A stretch of DNA of 33,355 nucleotides from Candidatus Peregrinibacteria bacterium (lineage in GTDB: Bacteria; Patescibacteriota; Gracilibacteria; UBA1369; LOWO2-01-FULL-3). The stretch lies in the NCBI GenBank assembly GCA_018664365.1, contig JABJOK010000103.1, positions 1 to 33,355 of the forward strand. Direction: 5' to 3'. The notes below the pieces were generated by a model. That model had not been told where the DNA came from and did no database searches. It worked only from the letters and a program-made list of their open reading frames with translations. A program made the position numbers and the translations under genes. Positions 9,898 through 13,473 of this stretch are shown here, piece by piece. Position 1 is the stretch's first letter, and each line of letters opens with the position of its first letter.

Positions 9898-11079
9898 ATG
9901 AACTTAAGGAAATTGAGCCTAAAATCAAACAATCTCAAGCTGATGTGCTTGGAAAACCTCACAAGTGGTTTGATTTTTTTCCTGCCTGTTATGGCGGTTT
10001 ATTACAAAAGTATAGTGGGGTCTGTGGCTAACGTGGGAATTGTTATTGCAACTTTCTCACTGTCCTTATTAATATTCGAAATTCCAAGCGGAGCTATTGC
10101 GGATCTTTTTGGAAGGAAGACCACCATTATACTGGGGTATATATTATGGATAATAGCCTTGGTGGTATTATATTTTGCAGATTCAATGTTTGGACTAATA
10201 TCCTTTTCAGTTCTTGATGGAATGGCCTCAAGCCTTTTTAGTGGAGCAGATAGTGCTCTGATATACGACACTCTTAAAGAAGAAGGAAAGGAGCGCCACT
10301 ACAAAAAAGCAATCGGCCTATACCACTCAATGTGGCCACTGGGTGCCGCTGCCGGAGCTGTTATTGGAGGATATATCGCAGCAATTGATTTAAAACTAGC
10401 AGTTCTATTGAGCATCCCCACGGCATTCATGGCATTCCTTTTCGTTTTACCCATTAAGGAGCCAAAGTTTCACAAAGAGGAGCACAAGAACGTGCTCAGG
10501 CAAATGAAGAAATCAATAAAAATAGCAATCTCAAGCAGGCAGATCCTTATATTAATAGGAGCAGGATTTATCCTCTGGGGGCTGGGAGAGGCTTCACACT
10601 GGATCGATTCGATTTACTACACGTTCAAAGGAATCGAAATAAAACACTTCGGATACATTACAGGAGCGGCCTTTGGTCTATCTTCATTAGGGCATTTTCT
10701 ATCACACAAGTTTGCGAAAAAAGTTGGTGACAAAAATGCGATTCTATTAACTGTAGGAATTTGGATCGTACTCTTCTTTTCATCAACTTTAATGGCAGGC
10801 TGGCCAGCAGTTATTCTTTTCGTGATACCAGCACTCCTATTTGGGCTTCGAGCTCCAGTTGAAGAACACATTGCCAATGCAGAGGTAAGCTCAAGCCAAC
10901 GTGCAACAGTGCTCTCTATCGTCAACTTCAGCAGGCAGTCCTCAATGGCAATTTTCACACCCCTAGTCGGATACTTCGCAGATCTTTATGATTTAGACGT
11001 AGCTTTCAGGGCTTCTTCAATAATAATGATCGTGGCATTTGTGATCTTTTTTGGGCTGAAGTCTCCTAAGAAGGTTTAG
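9898..11079 (+). CDS. MFS-family transporter
   Basis: The 393-aa protein is polytopic and hydrophobic, with about 12 hydrophobic segments. It has an MFS loop 2-3 signature-like sequence, EIPSGAIADLFGRKTTIILG. An alternative start exists at M16 (9943). Confidence 0.75.
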   Translation: MNLRKLSLKSNNLKLMCLENLTSGLIFFLPVMAVYYKSIVGSVANVGIVIATFSLSLLIFEIPSGAIADLFGRKTTIILGYILWIIALVVLYFADSMFGLISFSVLDGMASSLFSGADSALIYDTLKEEGKERHYKKAIGLYHSMWPLGAAAGAVIGGYIAAIDLKLAVLLSIPTAFMAFLFVLPIKEPKFHKEEHKNVLRQMKKSIKIAISSRQILILIGAGFILWGLGEASHWIDSIYYTFKGIEIKHFGYITGAAFGLSSLGHFLSHKFAKKVGDKNAILLTVGIWIVLFFSSTLMAGWPAVILFVIPALLFGLRAPVEEHIANAEVSSSQRATVLSIVNFSRQSSMAIFTPLVGYFADLYDLDVAFRASSIIMIVAFVIFFGLKSPKKV

Positions 11080-11249
11080 AATCTAAGGTGGCGTGGTACT
11101 TACTTGATCGGAGATCTTCTTGTTCTTCTCAATGTTCCGCACGCTCATTGTATCCATTTATTTGGGGCAAAATGGTAAGCCCGCTGTCCCCTACTCACAC
11201 CGTTGCTTCATGCTTCGGTGATTTCGGTTATTGATAGAGACTAATCGGC

Positions 11250-11951
11250 CTAGATCGGCTTGGCCATGCAGTACCACTTACCGTCTACCTGGACGAGGTT
11301 GTAATCCTCGCTCGGGCAGGACAGTGTGGGGCTGCACTTTATGGCATGTCCGACGTGAATCAAGTACCCCTTGCAGACGGGGGGCTCGCTCACAGGCTCA
11401 CTGTGTCGGGGGGCATTCCAGGCTCGCCGATAGTCCTCTCTCGGATCGTGTTGGGGCTCGGGATCCTCAAGGGACTCCTCCTCACCGAAACACATAACCG
11501 GGGTTACCTTCACCTCTCCGCAGACGCGGAAAACGTCCATCCGCGGGTCTTCCGTACGATGGTTGACCCACACGCCCGTCTGAATCGACGAACGACGAAG
11601 GCTGAGGCTATGGCGAGAGCTAGTCGACGAGCGGCCGTTCACTTTTGAGCTGCTCTTGTAGAGGAATTCTGCCACATCACTGGGGCATCCTTCCATAAGA
11701 GACGCTCGAAGGTCCAGGTCGATATCGGTCCACACCAGCGAATCGAAGCTCTCCTGAGAGACCTTGCGACAGCTGACGACGCGGTTATCAACAAAACCGA
11801 TCATGGAACCACGGGCAGTCGCCTGCCAGTAGGCCTCGATGGTTGTGTCGACTTCCGTAGAGCCGAAATATCCCGTCGAAGTGCTCGCGCACCCCGAAAT
11901 GATGAGTGCGGTTGCGACCACACCCAGAGGCATAAAACCCTTTCTCTGCAT
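11250..11951 (-). CDS. Lipoprotein of unknown function, encoded in a GC-rich islet
   Basis: The N-terminus MQRKGFMPLGVVATALIISG/CAS has a positive n-region, a hydrophobic core and a lipobox (L/I)-(S)-G-C. AAGGAG lies 8 nt upstream of the ATG. Third codon positions are strongly G/C-biased, as expected for a real gene from a GC-rich background. The C-terminal part is Cys-rich. I recognise no family. Confidence 0.7.
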   Translation of the reverse strand: MQRKGFMPLGVVATALIISGCASTSTGYFGSTEVDTTIEAYWQATARGSMIGFVDNRVVSCRKVSQESFDSLVWTDIDLDLRASLMEGCPSDVAEFLYKSSSKVNGRSSTSSRHSLSLRRSSIQTGVWVNHRTEDPRMDVFRVCGEVKVTPVMCFGEEESLEDPEPQHDPREDYRRAWNAPRHSEPVSEPPVCKGYLIHVGHAIKCSPTLSCPSEDYNLVQVDGKWYCMAKPI

Positions 11952-11959
11952 TTATAAAT

Positions 11960-11965
11960 CTCCTT
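11960..11965 (-). promoter_or_regulatory. Shine-Dalgarno AAGGAG for the lipoprotein gene
   Basis: The minus-strand sequence reads ggAAAGGAGatttataaATG, with an 8-nt spacer. The other genes I inspected in this window have no comparable SD. Confidence 0.6.
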
Positions 11966-12098
11966 TCCTGCAGGATTGGGTTACTGTGGCTCTGGCTAGA
12001 TGGGGAAATCCCATCATAGAAGCAAGTACCACCACCTTAAATTCTAATAACTACATGTAAAGGAACGTGAATCTAGCTGATGGATTATACAAAGAACA

Positions 12099-12118
12099 GG
12101 GCCCTGTGTCAAGGGCCC
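12099..12118 (-). terminator. Hairpin downstream of tRNA-Asp (possible terminator)
   Basis: GGGCCCT/AGGGCCC forms a 7-bp GC stem with a 6-nt loop. On the minus strand it is followed by uguucuuugua. The stem core is palindromic, so the strand assignment rests on context only. Confidence 0.35.
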
Positions 12119-12147
12119 GACACACCTCTAATCAGAAAAAACCGCGT

Positions 12148-12224
12148 TGGCGGAACGGACGGGACTCGAACCCGCGACCTCCTGCGTGACAGGCAGGCGT
12201 TCTAACCAGCTGAACTACCGCTCC
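12148..12224 (-). tRNA. tRNA-Asp (anticodon GUC), 77 nt, with encoded CCA
   Basis: The reverse complement is GGAGCGGTAGTTCAGCTGGTTAGAACGCCTGCCTGTCACGCAGGAGGTCGCGGGTTCGAGTCCCGTCCGTTCCGCCA. It folds as a cloverleaf. The acceptor stem is GGAGCGG/CCGTTCC, the D stem GTTC/GAAC and the anticodon stem CCTGC/GCAGG. The anticodon loop is CTGTCAC, and the T arm is GCGGG-TTCGAGT-CCCGT. Confidence 0.95.
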
Positions 12225-12318
12225 ATTTTGCCGCCGCTAAAGAATTTTTTTAGCCCATGGAAGATAATATATTTCTCCTCTGAATACAAGTTTTTCTTTT
12301 AAAGTTTTCTTAAGTGTT

Positions 12319-12324
12319 TATAAT
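12319..12324 (+). promoter_or_regulatory. -10 box TATAAT placed 6 nt before the glycosyltransferase ATG (predicts a leaderless mRNA)
   Basis: The sequence reads tttTATAATcgctgcATG. There is no SD, and I saw no convincing -35. Confidence 0.35.
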
Positions 12325-12330
12325 CGCTGC

Positions 12331-13473
12331 ATGAAGATAGGAATCGACTGTCGATTATACAGTTCAAACTTTACCGGAATAGGACGCTACGTTCACGAGA
12401 TTGTGGATTGGTTTGTGAAAATTAATAATGAAAATAAACGCGAGAACGAACTTGTGCTTTTCTTTAATAAGCCCGAGTACAATGATTTCATTCCACCAAA
12501 TCTTTCAGTAAAGAAGGTCCTTGTGAATGCTAGGCACTATTCACTTGCAGAACAGACTAAATTTTTAAAAATATTGAACAAGGAAAATTGCGACATAGTG
12601 CATTTTCCCCACTTCAACGTGCCAATTCTCTACAAAAAACCATATGTAGTAACAATTCATGACCTAACTCTTTCATTTTTCCCTGGGCAAAAAATGACCA
12701 AGTGGTTTCACAGGCTAGCCTATAATTGGACAATAAAAAACGCTGTTAAGAAGGCAAAGAAGGTAGTCGCAGTATCTGAAAATACAAAGGCCGATATAGT
12801 TGAAAATCTAAAAGTGCCAGAGGCGAAAATTAAGGTGATTCACAACGGCGTTTCAAAGTTTTTTCAAATGCTGGATGATCCCAAAGAGGCAGGGAGTACC
12901 CTCAAGAAATATGGCATAAACAAGCAGTTTCTGCTTTACACTGGGGTTTGGCGCAATCACAAGAATCTTCCTAATCTAATAAAGGCTTTTGAAATAATTA
13001 AGAGCAGAAAGGAAATAGACCTACAGCTAGTAATTACAGGGAAAGAGGATCCTCACTACCCGGAGGTTAGAAAAGAAATCAAAAAATCAGAATTTAATGA
13101 GGACGTAATTACTCCCGGCCTAGTCAAAGAAGAGGAGCTGCTTCACCTATACAACGCTGCCCTGCTATACGTCTTCCCCTCGTTATATGAAGGCTTTGGA
13201 TTGCCACCACTTGAATCAATGAAATGCGGAACTCCTGTAGTAGCCTCAAACACATCCTGCATTCCAGAGGTTTGTGGCGAAAAGAATGCAGTTTTCTTTG
13301 ATCCCTATTATCCACAAAAAATTGCTGATAAAATTGAACACCTATATAAGGATGCTGACCTTCAGGCAGAATTAGTTGAAAGAGGGTATCAGCATGCTAA
13401 TAAATTTACCTGGGAGAGATCAGCGCGCACCACTTACAATATTTTATGTTCGAACCATTCCAACAATTCGTAA
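12331..13473 (+). CDS. GT4-family (group 1) glycosyltransferase
   Basis: The C-terminal signature FPSLYEGFGLPPLESMKCGTPVVASNTSCIPEVCG matches the E-x7-E / GT-B retaining glycosyltransferase motif. At 380 aa the length is typical. Confidence 0.85.
   Translation: MKIGIDCRLYSSNFTGIGRYVHEIVDWFVKINNENKRENELVLFFNKPEYNDFIPPNLSVKKVLVNARHYSLAEQTKFLKILNKENCDIVHFPHFNVPILYKKPYVVTIHDLTLSFFPGQKMTKWFHRLAYNWTIKNAVKKAKKVVAVSENTKADIVENLKVPEAKIKVIHNGVSKFFQMLDDPKEAGSTLKKYGINKQFLLYTGVWRNHKNLPNLIKAFEIIKSRKEIDLQLVITGKEDPHYPEVRKEIKKSEFNEDVITPGLVKEEELLHLYNAALLYVFPSLYEGFGLPPLESMKCGTPVVASNTSCIPEVCGEKNAVFFDPYYPQKIADKIEHLYKDADLQAELVERGYQHANKFTWERSARTTYNILCSNHSNNS

What the first reader, a model, noticed from the sequence alone, without database searches (positions are those of the whole stretch)
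11090..12230. GC-rich islet carrying an SD-equipped lipoprotein gene next to tRNA-Asp in an AT-rich, SD-poor genome
Hand counts give 60% GC (11281-11340) and 65% GC (11401-11460) inside the islet. The flanking genes give 35% (10981-11040) and 40% (12331-12390). The single gene inside encodes a lipobox lipoprotein with GC-biased third positions. It has a perfect AAGGAG SD, whereas I found essentially no SD in front of about 20 other genes in this window. The islet lies on the 3' side of tRNA-Asp, the classic insertion side for foreign DNA. This looks like a small horizontally acquired cargo from a high-GC donor. The unknown Cys-rich lipoprotein is a candidate surface or host-interaction factor.
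Basis: partly seen in the sequence, partly recalled or inferred. Interest (0 to 1): 0.6.

Follow-up and report, generated by a model that had tools for sequence, protein, structure and literature searches.

The report
Helix-closed GC-rich lipoprotein gene cassette
The GC-rich islet is real and is one of a small family of self-contained gene cassettes in Peregrinibacteria, each with a strong promoter, a ribosome-binding site and a fast-evolving surface lipoprotein gene, bracketed by a conserved ~28-base inverted repeat that probably closes the messenger RNA into a long helix; it does not look like a recent insertion at the tRNA.

Summary
The ORF at 11250-11951(-) has GC3 0.69, against a genome mean of 0.317 (sd 0.063). 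It has a real SD in a genome where about 2% of ORFs have one, and a lipobox. The locus is 100% identical across both junctions in three further short contigs from other assemblies, so it is not a chimera.

- There is no integrase and no att repeat.
- No relative of the protein turned up among the roughly 15 billion proteins behind the search libraries.

New here: the islet is bounded by a ~28-nt inverted repeat (12047-12020 / 11076-11105). The same repeat, a strong promoter upstream, an SD and a lipoprotein frame recur at a second locus in this genome (C42) and in a sister genus. None of those copies is next to a tRNA, and the mature proteins are unrelated.

Between two orthologous cassettes the repeat arms are 60/60 identical while the cargo is 66% identical, and GC at synonymous sites is actively kept. 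All interior arm mismatches are G·U in the sense RNA.

Best reading: an mRNA-closing helix that processes or stabilises the transcript of a fast-evolving surface lipoprotein. The rival is a DNA recombination site. Read mapping was unavailable. This scan has already noted similar GC-rich cassettes in other CPR genomes.

The parts
12148..12224 (-). tRNA-Asp(GTC). It is the upstream neighbour and gives context; it is not part of the cassette.
   Evidence: ARAGORN and Rfam RF00005 at 70.5 bits. The tRNA-Asp/GT4 adjacency is conserved in many genera of the family.
12099..12118 (-). Terminator-like hairpin of tRNA-Asp (GGGCCC..GGGCCC followed by a T-rich tail). Its loop holds the -35 box of the cassette promoter.
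   Evidence: Terminator scan.
12084..12112 (-). Predicted sigma-70 promoter TTGACA-N17-TATAAT (12/12 matches). The inferred TSS is near 12077, which gives a leader of ~126 nt.
   Evidence: Equivalent promoters (10-11/12) lie upstream of the 5' arm in the three other cassettes. The prediction has not been tested experimentally.
12020..12047 (-). 5' arm of the bracketing inverted repeat (sense: TTAGAATTTAAGGTGGTGGTACTTGCTT), inside the predicted 5' UTR.
   Evidence: the repeat finder I1+I5. The same arm is found at C42, G054, G002 and L117. In a fold of the full-length RNA it pairs with the 3' arm.
11960..11966 (-). Shine-Dalgarno AAAGGAG, 8 nt upstream of the ATG.
   Evidence: Read from the sequence. 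The genome-wide background for a strong SD is 2%.
11250..11951 (-). Gene for an orphan lipoprotein of 233 aa. It has a signal peptide and lipobox (LIISG|C21), 8 further Cys, a Ser/Arg-rich middle and a 4-Cys C-terminal part. GC3 is 0.69.
   Evidence: There is no Pfam, NCBIfam or sequence homologue. The order GC3 > GC1 > GC2 is the usual pattern for coding sequence.
11106..11249 (-). 3' UTR (46% GC) with no terminator before the 3' arm.
11076..11105 (-). 3' arm of the inverted repeat (+ strand: TTAGAATCTAAGGTGGCGTGGTACTTACTT), with a 2-nt bulge. Its outer 4 nt overlap the stop codon of the convergent MFS gene (9898-11079).

Best explanation
Segment 11076-12112 is a self-contained, single-gene expression cassette for a fast-evolving, Cys-rich surface lipoprotein.

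Layout, read 5' to 3' on the minus strand:
- A consensus sigma-70 promoter sits inside the tRNA-Asp terminator hairpin.
- It drives a leader of ~126 nt, an SD, the lipoprotein ORF and a trailer of ~145 nt.
- The leader and the trailer each carry one arm of a ~28-nt inverted repeat.

In the transcript the two arms pair into a long-range helix: 16 bp, a small asymmetric bulge, then 11-12 bp, at about -40 kcal/mol. This helix closes the whole mRNA. I infer that the helix works as RNA. It would be a double-strand-specific (RNase III-type) processing site and/or a 5'-3' end clamp that defines and protects the message. Together with the strong promoter, the SD and the GC-rich codons, this would give high, autonomous expression in a genome whose other genes are mostly leaderless or SD-less.

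The cassette belongs to a small homologous family. There are two copies in this genome and others in a sister genus. They share the promoter/arm/SD/signal-peptide frame, but their mature proteins have diverged beyond recognition.

The GC-richness is concentrated in codon third positions. In the one orthologous pair available it is actively maintained, not a decaying trace of recent transfer. A foreign origin in the deeper past is not excluded.

Shown: the composition, the repeat, the family, conservation of the arms against fast cargo evolution, and GC maintenance in the orthologous pair.
Inferred: transcription of both arms, RNA pairing in vivo, processing or stabilisation, and surface location of the protein.
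For: - Repeat and family. The arms are at 11076-11105 and 12020-12047. The same repeat brackets a second GC-rich lipoprotein gene at G000:C42:2029-2767. It also brackets lipoprotein genes at G054:C41:6465-7279, at G002:C1:261351-261865 and in metagenome contig L117. Convergent pairs of the 16-nt pattern occur only in these genomes out of 205 of the order. The reversed-pattern control gave only single hits.
- Both arms lie in one predicted transcript. A TTGACA-N16/17 promoter lies 35-60 nt upstream of the 5' arm in all cassettes. There is no terminator between the stop codon and the 3' arm. In G002 a terminator follows directly after the 3' arm.
- Folding. Full-length MFE folds pair the two arms in all five cassettes, with duplex energies of -40 to -44 kcal/mol.
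- Pairing statistics. 98.1% of cells are paired, and 6 pairs change on both sides. The covariation score exceeds all 500 shuffles and every slid control. All interior non-Watson-Crick cells, at 4 independent sites, are G·U in the sense strand, which would be A·C in the antisense strand.
- Selection on the arms. Between the G054 and L117 orthologues the arms are 30/30 and 30/30 identical. The UTRs are 79% identical, the cargo CDS 66%, and the flanking genes 83-90%. The chance of 60/60 identity at 85% background identity is about 6e-5.
- Fast but constrained cargo. For the cargo, dN is 0.42, dS 0.89 and amino-acid identity 51%, with the Cys residues and several motifs conserved. For the adjacent mutS, dN is 0.022 and dS 0.57.
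- GC is kept. At four-fold sites the cargo shows 12 G<->C changes against 11 GC<->AT changes. mutS shows 1 against 39 (Fisher p = 5e-6).
- Rarity. In a scan of 807 ORFs for complementarity between leader and trailer, C21 scored 38 and C42 scored 37, against a mean of 17.8 (sd 2.9).
- RNase III genes are present in the family (G002, G054, G053, G007).
- The homology among cassettes extends upstream of the 5' arm (a TCTTTGAAA box and the promoter), so the arms are not the ends of the repeated unit.
Against: - No transcript data were available.
- Covariation between the arms, and their conservation, would also be seen for DNA sites bound by one protein or homogenised by gene conversion.
- Only four independent cassettes exist, so the G·U argument is weak (about p = 1/16).
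- The outer 16 nt are conserved in sequence, not only in pairing, which suggests protein recognition of either RNA or DNA.
- RNase III was not found in this genome's 85.6%-complete assembly.
- GC maintenance was shown only for the G054/L117 cassette. The G002 cassette is not GC-rich (GC3 0.42).
- For the C21 gene itself there is no orthologue to test.
Confidence: 0.5

Rival explanations
1. The inverted repeats act at the DNA level as recombination sites. The cassette would then be either an invertible ON/OFF segment (phase variation of a surface lipoprotein relative to the fixed outside promoter) or a non-autonomous mobile cassette moved in trans by a recombinase or transposase, in the manner of a mobile insertion cassette or an Xer-dependent pdif-type module.
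For: The arms are ~28 nt long and bracket 0.5-1 kb single-gene segments. Two copies with different cargo sit at unrelated loci in one genome, and further copies at other loci occur in a sister genus. The outer 16 nt are conserved in sequence. The cargo is a surface lipoprotein, a typical target of phase variation. G002 lacks the cassette at the lexA-mutS locus where G054 has it.
Against: - No target-site duplication appears at any of the four elements.
- The homology among cassettes continues upstream of the 5' arm into the promoter region, so the arms are not termini.
- The 3' arm carries a bulge of variable length (1-4 nt) in its middle, which fits poorly with a fixed recombinase site.
- G000 has no serine recombinase. 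Its only full tyrosine recombinase lies elsewhere (C53) and is probably Xer. No rve, DDE_Tnp_1 or TnpB gene was found in G000 or in the 96%-complete G002.
- Every contig recovered that reaches from the gene into a flank shows the same orientation: four with DNA and one by gene order. All cassettes seen are in the ON orientation with the same arm asymmetry.
- The arm mismatches are G·U only in the sense strand.
Confidence: 0.2
2. One reading: a recent horizontal acquisition from a high-GC donor, integrated on the 3' side of tRNA-Asp, with the repeats being incidental.
For: GC3 is 5.9 sd above the genome mean. The gene has an SD and a long leader in a genome that is otherwise nearly SD-free. It is an orphan. 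The region 3' of tRNA-Asp differs between genera, while the tRNA-GT4 adjacency is conserved.
Against: - There is no integrase and no att direct repeat.
- The other cassettes of the family are not at tRNAs.
- No donor-like homologue exists in libraries drawn from ~15 billion proteins, for this cargo or for the C42 cargo.
- The promoter and the outer arms are AT-rich and native in style, and the UTRs are only 45-50% GC. The enrichment is therefore specific to the CDS and to third positions.
- The orthologous G054/L117 cassettes have sat at one locus through dS of about 0.6-0.9 without losing GC.
- Another GC-rich gene of this genome, the C64 transporter, has homologues that are GC-richer than their flanks in several other contigs, whatever the host GC.
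Confidence: 0.15
3. An artefact: either a chimeric assembly, or a non-coding structured RNA mistaken for a gene.
For: The genome is a fragmented MAG of 131 contigs. GC-rich DNA gives long chance ORFs, and several overlapping ORFs are in fact listed.
Against: Three independently assembled short contigs are 100% identical across both junctions, and a 55.5-kb contig has the same gene order. No Rfam family matches, even at a permissive threshold. The ORF has an SD, a signal peptide, a lipobox and GC3 > GC1 > GC2. The homologous cassette pair has dN/dS 0.47 with conserved Cys.
Confidence: 0.02

Closest known systems
Phage 'morons' (HK97/HK022-type autonomous promoter-ORF-terminator units). Stated from my own knowledge; the comparison is also made in earlier notes of this scan.
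   Same: A single gene with its own strong promoter and end signal sits between unrelated genes. Its composition differs from the surroundings, and it often encodes a membrane or surface protein.
   Different: This cassette is in a cellular CPR chromosome with no prophage context. It is bracketed by a conserved long-range inverted repeat rather than closed by a simple terminator, and its GC is persistently maintained.
Variable surface lipoprotein gene families of Mycoplasma (vsp, vlp, vpma, mpl). Stated from my own knowledge.
   Same: The 5' region and lipoprotein signal peptide are conserved, while the mature parts are highly divergent and fast-evolving. The host is a small-genome, host-dependent bacterium. 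In the mpl and vpma systems short inverted repeats are involved.
   Different: Here the copies are dispersed single genes rather than clusters. No site-specific recombinase lies beside them. The promoter lies outside the repeat-bounded segment and the whole gene lies inside it. No orientation variants were seen in the contigs that reach a flank.
Long-range processing stems that bracket 16S and 23S rRNA in bacterial rRNA operons, and RNase III sites of phage T7 early mRNAs. Stated from my own knowledge.
   Same: 5' and 3' flanking sequences pair over more than 20 bp to enclose a whole functional RNA. An asymmetric internal loop in the helix is typical of RNase III sites that are cut on one strand.
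   Different: The helix here encloses a protein-coding mRNA of 0.4-0.7 kb. No cleavage has been shown, and the arm sequence is unrelated to the rRNA flanks of this genome.
Mobile insertion cassettes (MICs) and Acinetobacter pdif modules (PMC4337579 and PMC5444012 mention MICs; pdif modules are from my own knowledge).
   Same: Short inverted repeats flank a passenger gene that has no recombinase of its own, and there are several copies with different cargo.
   Different: There are no target-site duplications and no cognate transposase. The homology runs beyond the arms. The arms lack the 11-6-11 Xer dyad layout, and the spacing within the 3' arm is variable.
tRNA-targeted genomic islets and integrative elements.
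   Same: The islet is compositionally deviant DNA on the 3' side of a tRNA gene.
   Different: There is no integrase and no att repeat. The tRNA's own terminator lies between the tRNA and the islet, and sister cassettes are not at tRNAs.

Membership tests
Bacterial lipoprotein (Lgt/LspA substrate) | N-terminal signal peptide with a positively charged n-region, a hydrophobic h-region and a lipobox [LVI][ASTVI][GAS]C. | tested here: met
   MQRKGFMPLGVVATALI-I-S-G-C21. All five cassette cargos have a lipobox: LTSC or SLGC/TLGC. The test is by sequence only; no dedicated predictor or experiment was used.
tRNA-targeted integrative island | An integrase (tyrosine or serine recombinase) gene within or beside the island. 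| tested here: not met
   The islet holds only the lipoprotein ORF. The genome has no resolvase-family gene, and its one full tyrosine recombinase is on contig C53.
tRNA-targeted integrative island | A direct repeat of the tRNA 3' end (attL/attR) at the far boundary. | tested here: not met
   The direct repeats found within 10900-12400 are all 16 nt or shorter, and none involves the tRNA 3' end.
tRNA-targeted integrative island | Presence/absence polymorphism between close relatives. | not testable with these tools
   G000 is the only genome of its genus in the collection. Every contig recovered that carries the exact lipoprotein gene has it in this context.
Mobile insertion cassette / MITE-like element | Terminal inverted repeats that mark the ends of the repeated unit. 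| tested here: not met
   Inverted repeats exist, but the similarity between cassettes continues upstream of the 5' arm into a conserved box and the promoter.
Mobile insertion cassette / MITE-like element | Target-site duplication flanking the repeats. | tested here: not met
   The flanks of the four independent elements show no duplication.
Mobile insertion cassette / MITE-like element | A cognate transposase with matching repeats in the genome or pangenome. | tested here: not met
   No rve, DDE_Tnp_1 or TnpB gene was found in G000 or G002. No further copy of the arm pattern was found outside the cassettes apart from one chance match inside a coding gene (C58). MAG incompleteness is a caveat.
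Invertible DNA segment (inverton / shufflon) | Both orientations present in a population. | tested here: inconclusive
   Every contig recovered that reaches from the gene into a flank shows one orientation: four with DNA and one by gene order.
Invertible DNA segment (inverton / shufflon) | A dedicated invertase encoded nearby. | tested here: not met
RNase III-type long-range processing helix | At least ~20 bp of double-stranded RNA formed by sequences of one transcript. | tested here: inconclusive
   In silico the helix has 27-28 bp at -40 kcal/mol and appears in the full-length MFE fold. Co-transcription is inferred from promoter and terminator positions only.
RNase III-type long-range processing helix | RNase III encoded by the organism. 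| tested here: inconclusive
   RNase III was found in G002, G054, G053 and G007 of the family, but not in the 85.6%-complete G000 assembly.
RNase III-type long-range processing helix | Cleavage within the helix in vivo or in vitro. | not testable with these tools
   No transcript-end data were available.
Known structured RNA family (Rfam) | A match to a covariance model. | tested here: not met
   Only the tRNA matched, at the gathering threshold and at E <= 0.1.

The most novel reading that the evidence does not exclude
Peregrinibacteria, and perhaps CPR bacteria more widely, keep a dedicated class of autonomous surface-protein cassettes. Each would have a consensus promoter, a long leader and an SD, and its whole mRNA would be closed by a conserved 5'-3' helix. 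Its synonymous sites would be actively held GC-rich, by selection on the mRNA or by a biased repair or conversion process, in an AT-rich, largely leaderless genome. Under this reading the GC islets are not relics of horizontal transfer. They would mark a separate expression regime for fast-evolving host-interaction proteins.
Probability: 0.3. Interest if true: 0.75.

Novelty: new variant of a known kind. Interest (0 to 1): 0.6.

Why it matters
CPR bacteria are thought to live attached to other cells, yet their surface proteins are almost all uncharacterised. A recognisable cassette architecture (promoter, closing helix, SD, lipobox, GC-rich codons) gives a sequence handle for finding their most rapidly evolving, probably most highly expressed surface lipoproteins. 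These are the best candidates for host or phage interaction factors.

The result also warns against reading every GC-rich islet in these genomes as recent horizontal transfer. In the orthologous pair the GC is actively maintained, which calls for a mechanism (selection for mRNA stability or structure, or biased conversion) that has not been described for these organisms.

The helix can be tested directly with simple reporter constructs in laboratory strains.

Tried and rejected
- Homology searches on the 233-aa protein found nothing. This covers Pfam, NCBIfam, the 5.8-billion word-indexed search and a full phmmer against 1.84 billion representatives; the only hit was a fragment of the protein itself. 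The C42 cargo is likewise an orphan.
- AlphaFold2 without an alignment gave pLDDT 35, which is unusable, so I ran no fold search.
- Rfam, at both gathering and permissive thresholds, matched only the tRNA.
I substituted contigs from other assemblies.
- I searched for an empty site. MFS orthologues in the family (41-45% identity) are not next to tRNA-Asp. The C42 downstream gene has no useful orthologues. The exact MFS protein is on record only on a contig that also carries the cassette.
- Searches of species genomes and metagenome contigs with a 23-nt arm pattern found only the G054 lineage and the window's own organism, plus one AT-rich contig (L116) that I judged a chance or degenerate match and did not examine further.
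- Single pattern hits in C58 and G053 turned out to be chance matches inside ordinary coding genes.
- I tried to trace a donor through the C64 GC-rich transporter. Its homologues lie on contigs with small-genome housekeeping neighbours and are themselves GC-richer than their flanks, so no high-GC donor emerged.
- My first leader/trailer scan, based on duplex energy, was uninformative because the energies were dominated by many small helices. I replaced it with a local-alignment scan.
- I considered a DGR-type mechanism and rejected it: the cargo has no second copy in the genome.
- I considered dif/Xer-type sites and rejected them on the layout of the arms.
Full report
**Observation.** The window is a whole 33.4-kb contig (C21) of a 1.03-Mb MAG in 131 contigs, 85.6% complete and 38.8% GC. 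It belongs to a Peregrinibacteria/Peribacteria lineage.
- ORF 11250-11951(-) has GC 57.7% and GC3 0.69. The other long ORFs of the window have GC3 0.23-0.42. The genome mean over 792 ORFs is 0.317 (sd 0.063).
- Only four real genes in the genome exceed GC3 0.6: this one and genes on C42, C47 and C64. Three have a strong SD and the fourth (C42) a weaker GGAAAGG, whereas 2% of all ORFs have a strong SD. The 16S anti-SD is intact.
- The protein has a textbook signal peptide and lipobox, followed by eight more Cys.
- tRNA-Asp lies at 12148-12224(-).

**Not an artefact.** The exact protein is on record on five further contigs from different samples, plus a fragment on a sixth. The three short contigs retrieved with the full gene are 100% identical to the window across both junctions (together 10607-12583), and the fragment contig (L102, 99.9%) crosses the left junction. 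A 55.5-kb JGI contig shows the same gene order.

- The islet is bracketed by a ~28-nt inverted repeat, at 11076-11105 and 12020-12047.
- The same repeat brackets a second GC-rich (GC3 0.82-0.84) orphan lipoprotein gene on contig C42:2029-2767.
- A pattern search of 205 genomes of the order found convergent pairs only in this genome (two), in G054 and in G002, both of a sister genus. The reversed-pattern control gave scattered single hits only.
- A metagenome contig (L117) carries the orthologue of the G054 cassette at the same lexA-mutS locus.
- All five cassettes share one frame. A TTGACA-N16/17 promoter (10-12 of 12 matches) lies 35-60 nt upstream of the 5' arm. The 5' arm follows, then 30-90 nt, an SD, a lipoprotein ORF, a 60-145-nt trailer without a terminator, and the 3' arm.
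- In the window the promoter is a perfect TTGACA-N17-TATAAT at 12112-12084(-), sitting in the loop and descending stem of the tRNA-Asp terminator hairpin.
- The mature proteins are unrelated by BLASTP. Only the signal peptide and Thr-rich linker are similar.

**Is the repeat functional, and at which level?**
- Between the G054 and L117 orthologues both arms are 30/30 identical. The UTRs between them are 79% identical, the cargo CDS 66% and the neighbouring genes 83-90%. The chance of 60/60 identity at 85% background is about 6e-5. The arms are therefore under strong purifying selection.
- Across the four independent cassettes the outer 16 nt are conserved in sequence. The inner 11-12 nt differ between cassettes but stay complementary within each. 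Overall 98.1% of cells pair, six pairs change on both sides, and the score lies above all 500 shuffles and all slid controls.
- Every interior arm-to-arm mismatch, at four independent sites, is G·U in the sense RNA and would be A·C in the antisense strand. The 3' arm always carries a bulge of 1-4 nt at the same place.
- Both arms lie inside the predicted transcription unit.
- Folds of the full-length RNA close the molecule with this helix in all five cases.
- A scan of 807 ORFs for complementarity between leader and trailer puts the two cassettes about 7 sd above the mean.
- Taken together I favour an RNA-level closing helix: a processing site for a double-strand-specific nuclease and/or a clamp on the 5' and 3' ends.
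- RNase III is encoded in the family but was not found in this incomplete assembly.
- The DNA-level alternative (inversion switch or trans-mobilised cassette) is not excluded.
- Several results argue against it. There are no target-site duplications. The homology runs beyond the arms. The spacing inside the 3' arm varies. No recombinase or transposase partner was found. Only one orientation was seen.

**Origin and the GC question.**
- Nothing supports a tRNA-targeted integration. There is no integrase and no att repeat. The tRNA's own terminator lies between the tRNA and the cassette. The sister cassettes are not at tRNAs.
- No donor is visible. The C21 and C42 cargos have no relatives other than themselves.
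- GC enrichment is specific to the CDS and to third positions. The UTRs are 45-50% GC, against GC3 of 0.69-0.88. The promoter and outer arms are AT-rich.
- In the orthologous pair the cargo evolves about 19 times faster than mutS at non-synonymous sites (dN 0.42 against 0.022) but stays constrained (dN/dS 0.47, Cys and motifs kept).
- At four-fold sites, G<->C changes are as frequent as GC<->AT changes (12 against 11). In mutS the counts are 1 against 39 (p = 5e-6). Synonymous GC is therefore maintained, not decaying.
- The G002 cassette is not GC-rich (GC3 0.42), so GC-richness is not required by the repeat.
- Rapid divergence explains the orphan status without any need for an unsampled donor. 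An ancient foreign origin remains possible.

**Relation to earlier notes of this scan.** After I had formed this reading (recorded), the scan's index showed that similar GC-rich cassettes, mostly orphan genes and some repeat-bracketed lipoprotein genes, had been noted in other CPR genomes. Those notes are unverified AI notes. They agree with my reading but are not evidence for it. I found no description of such cassettes in the searched literature.

**Verdict.** The object is a member of an apparently undescribed small family of helix-closed, autonomous lipoprotein expression cassettes. The RNA-level mechanism is an inference at about 50% confidence.

Noticed in passing
G000:C42:2029-2767 (L002 1504-2242): A second cassette with the same inverted repeat. 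Its cargo is a 182-aa orphan lipoprotein (lipobox LTSC) with GC3 0.82-0.84. The promoter TTGACA-N17-TATTGT is at L002 1426-1454.
   Followed up: yes
G000:C64:3582-5535 (L105 2083-4036): A GC-rich islet (GC3 0.81) encoding a DUF1646/CitMHS-type cation transporter, bracketed by a perfect 14-nt inverted repeat, CAAGTAGGTAAGAC. Its homologues P0004-P0009 on other contigs are also GC-richer than their flanks, even in a 56%-GC contig (GC3 0.97). They carry strong SDs, and three of them sit next to infB.
   Followed up: partly
G000:C47:1965-2687: A GC-rich (GC3 0.86) lipoprotein gene with a collagen-like G-x-y stretch. It has an SD, a 10-nt perfect bracketing repeat (GAATCAAGAC / GTCTTGATTC) and a strong terminator.
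   Followed up: partly
G000:C49:13660-13896: A GC-rich (GC3 0.78) gene for a 78-aa membrane protein with an SD and a terminator. The motif CCTAAGGTGG lies directly upstream of its TTGACT-N17-TAAAAT promoter.
   Followed up: no
G000:C58:2167-3984 and G000:C45:7147-9453: Two ordinary-GC genes whose leader and trailer share inverted repeats of 32 nt and 21 nt. They scored 39 and 36 in the genome-wide scan, as high as the cassettes. The repeat sequences are unrelated to the cassette arms.
   Followed up: no
G014:C43:21249-21574 and G035:C131:1408-1754 (relatives): tRNA-Asp matches in two halves that are ~240-270 nt apart, which suggests an insertion or intron in the tRNA gene. A LAGLIDADG-like ORF lies nearby in L008 (2790-3449).
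   Followed up: no
L005 971-1402(-) (G010:C39): In another genus the gene directly 3' of tRNA-Asp, in the same orientation, is also a small lipoprotein. It has ordinary GC (GC3 0.32) and no bracketing repeat. It shows a marginal 32-aa similarity to the window's protein (22 of 2000 shuffles reach the observed score).
   Followed up: partly
G053:C4:24744-25289 (L109 4744-5289): Another GC-rich single-gene islet (181 aa, GC3 0.66, not a lipoprotein) that follows a terminator, in a sister genus.
   Followed up: no
window 11076-11079: The stop codon (TAG) of the convergent MFS gene lies inside the outer end of the 3' arm. MFS orthologues align to the last residue, so the gene is not truncated.
   Followed up: partly
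whole genome G000: Only about 2% of ORFs of at least 120 aa have a strong SD at -20 to -4, although the 16S 3' end (GGATCACCTCCTTT, on C52) keeps the anti-SD.
   Followed up: yes
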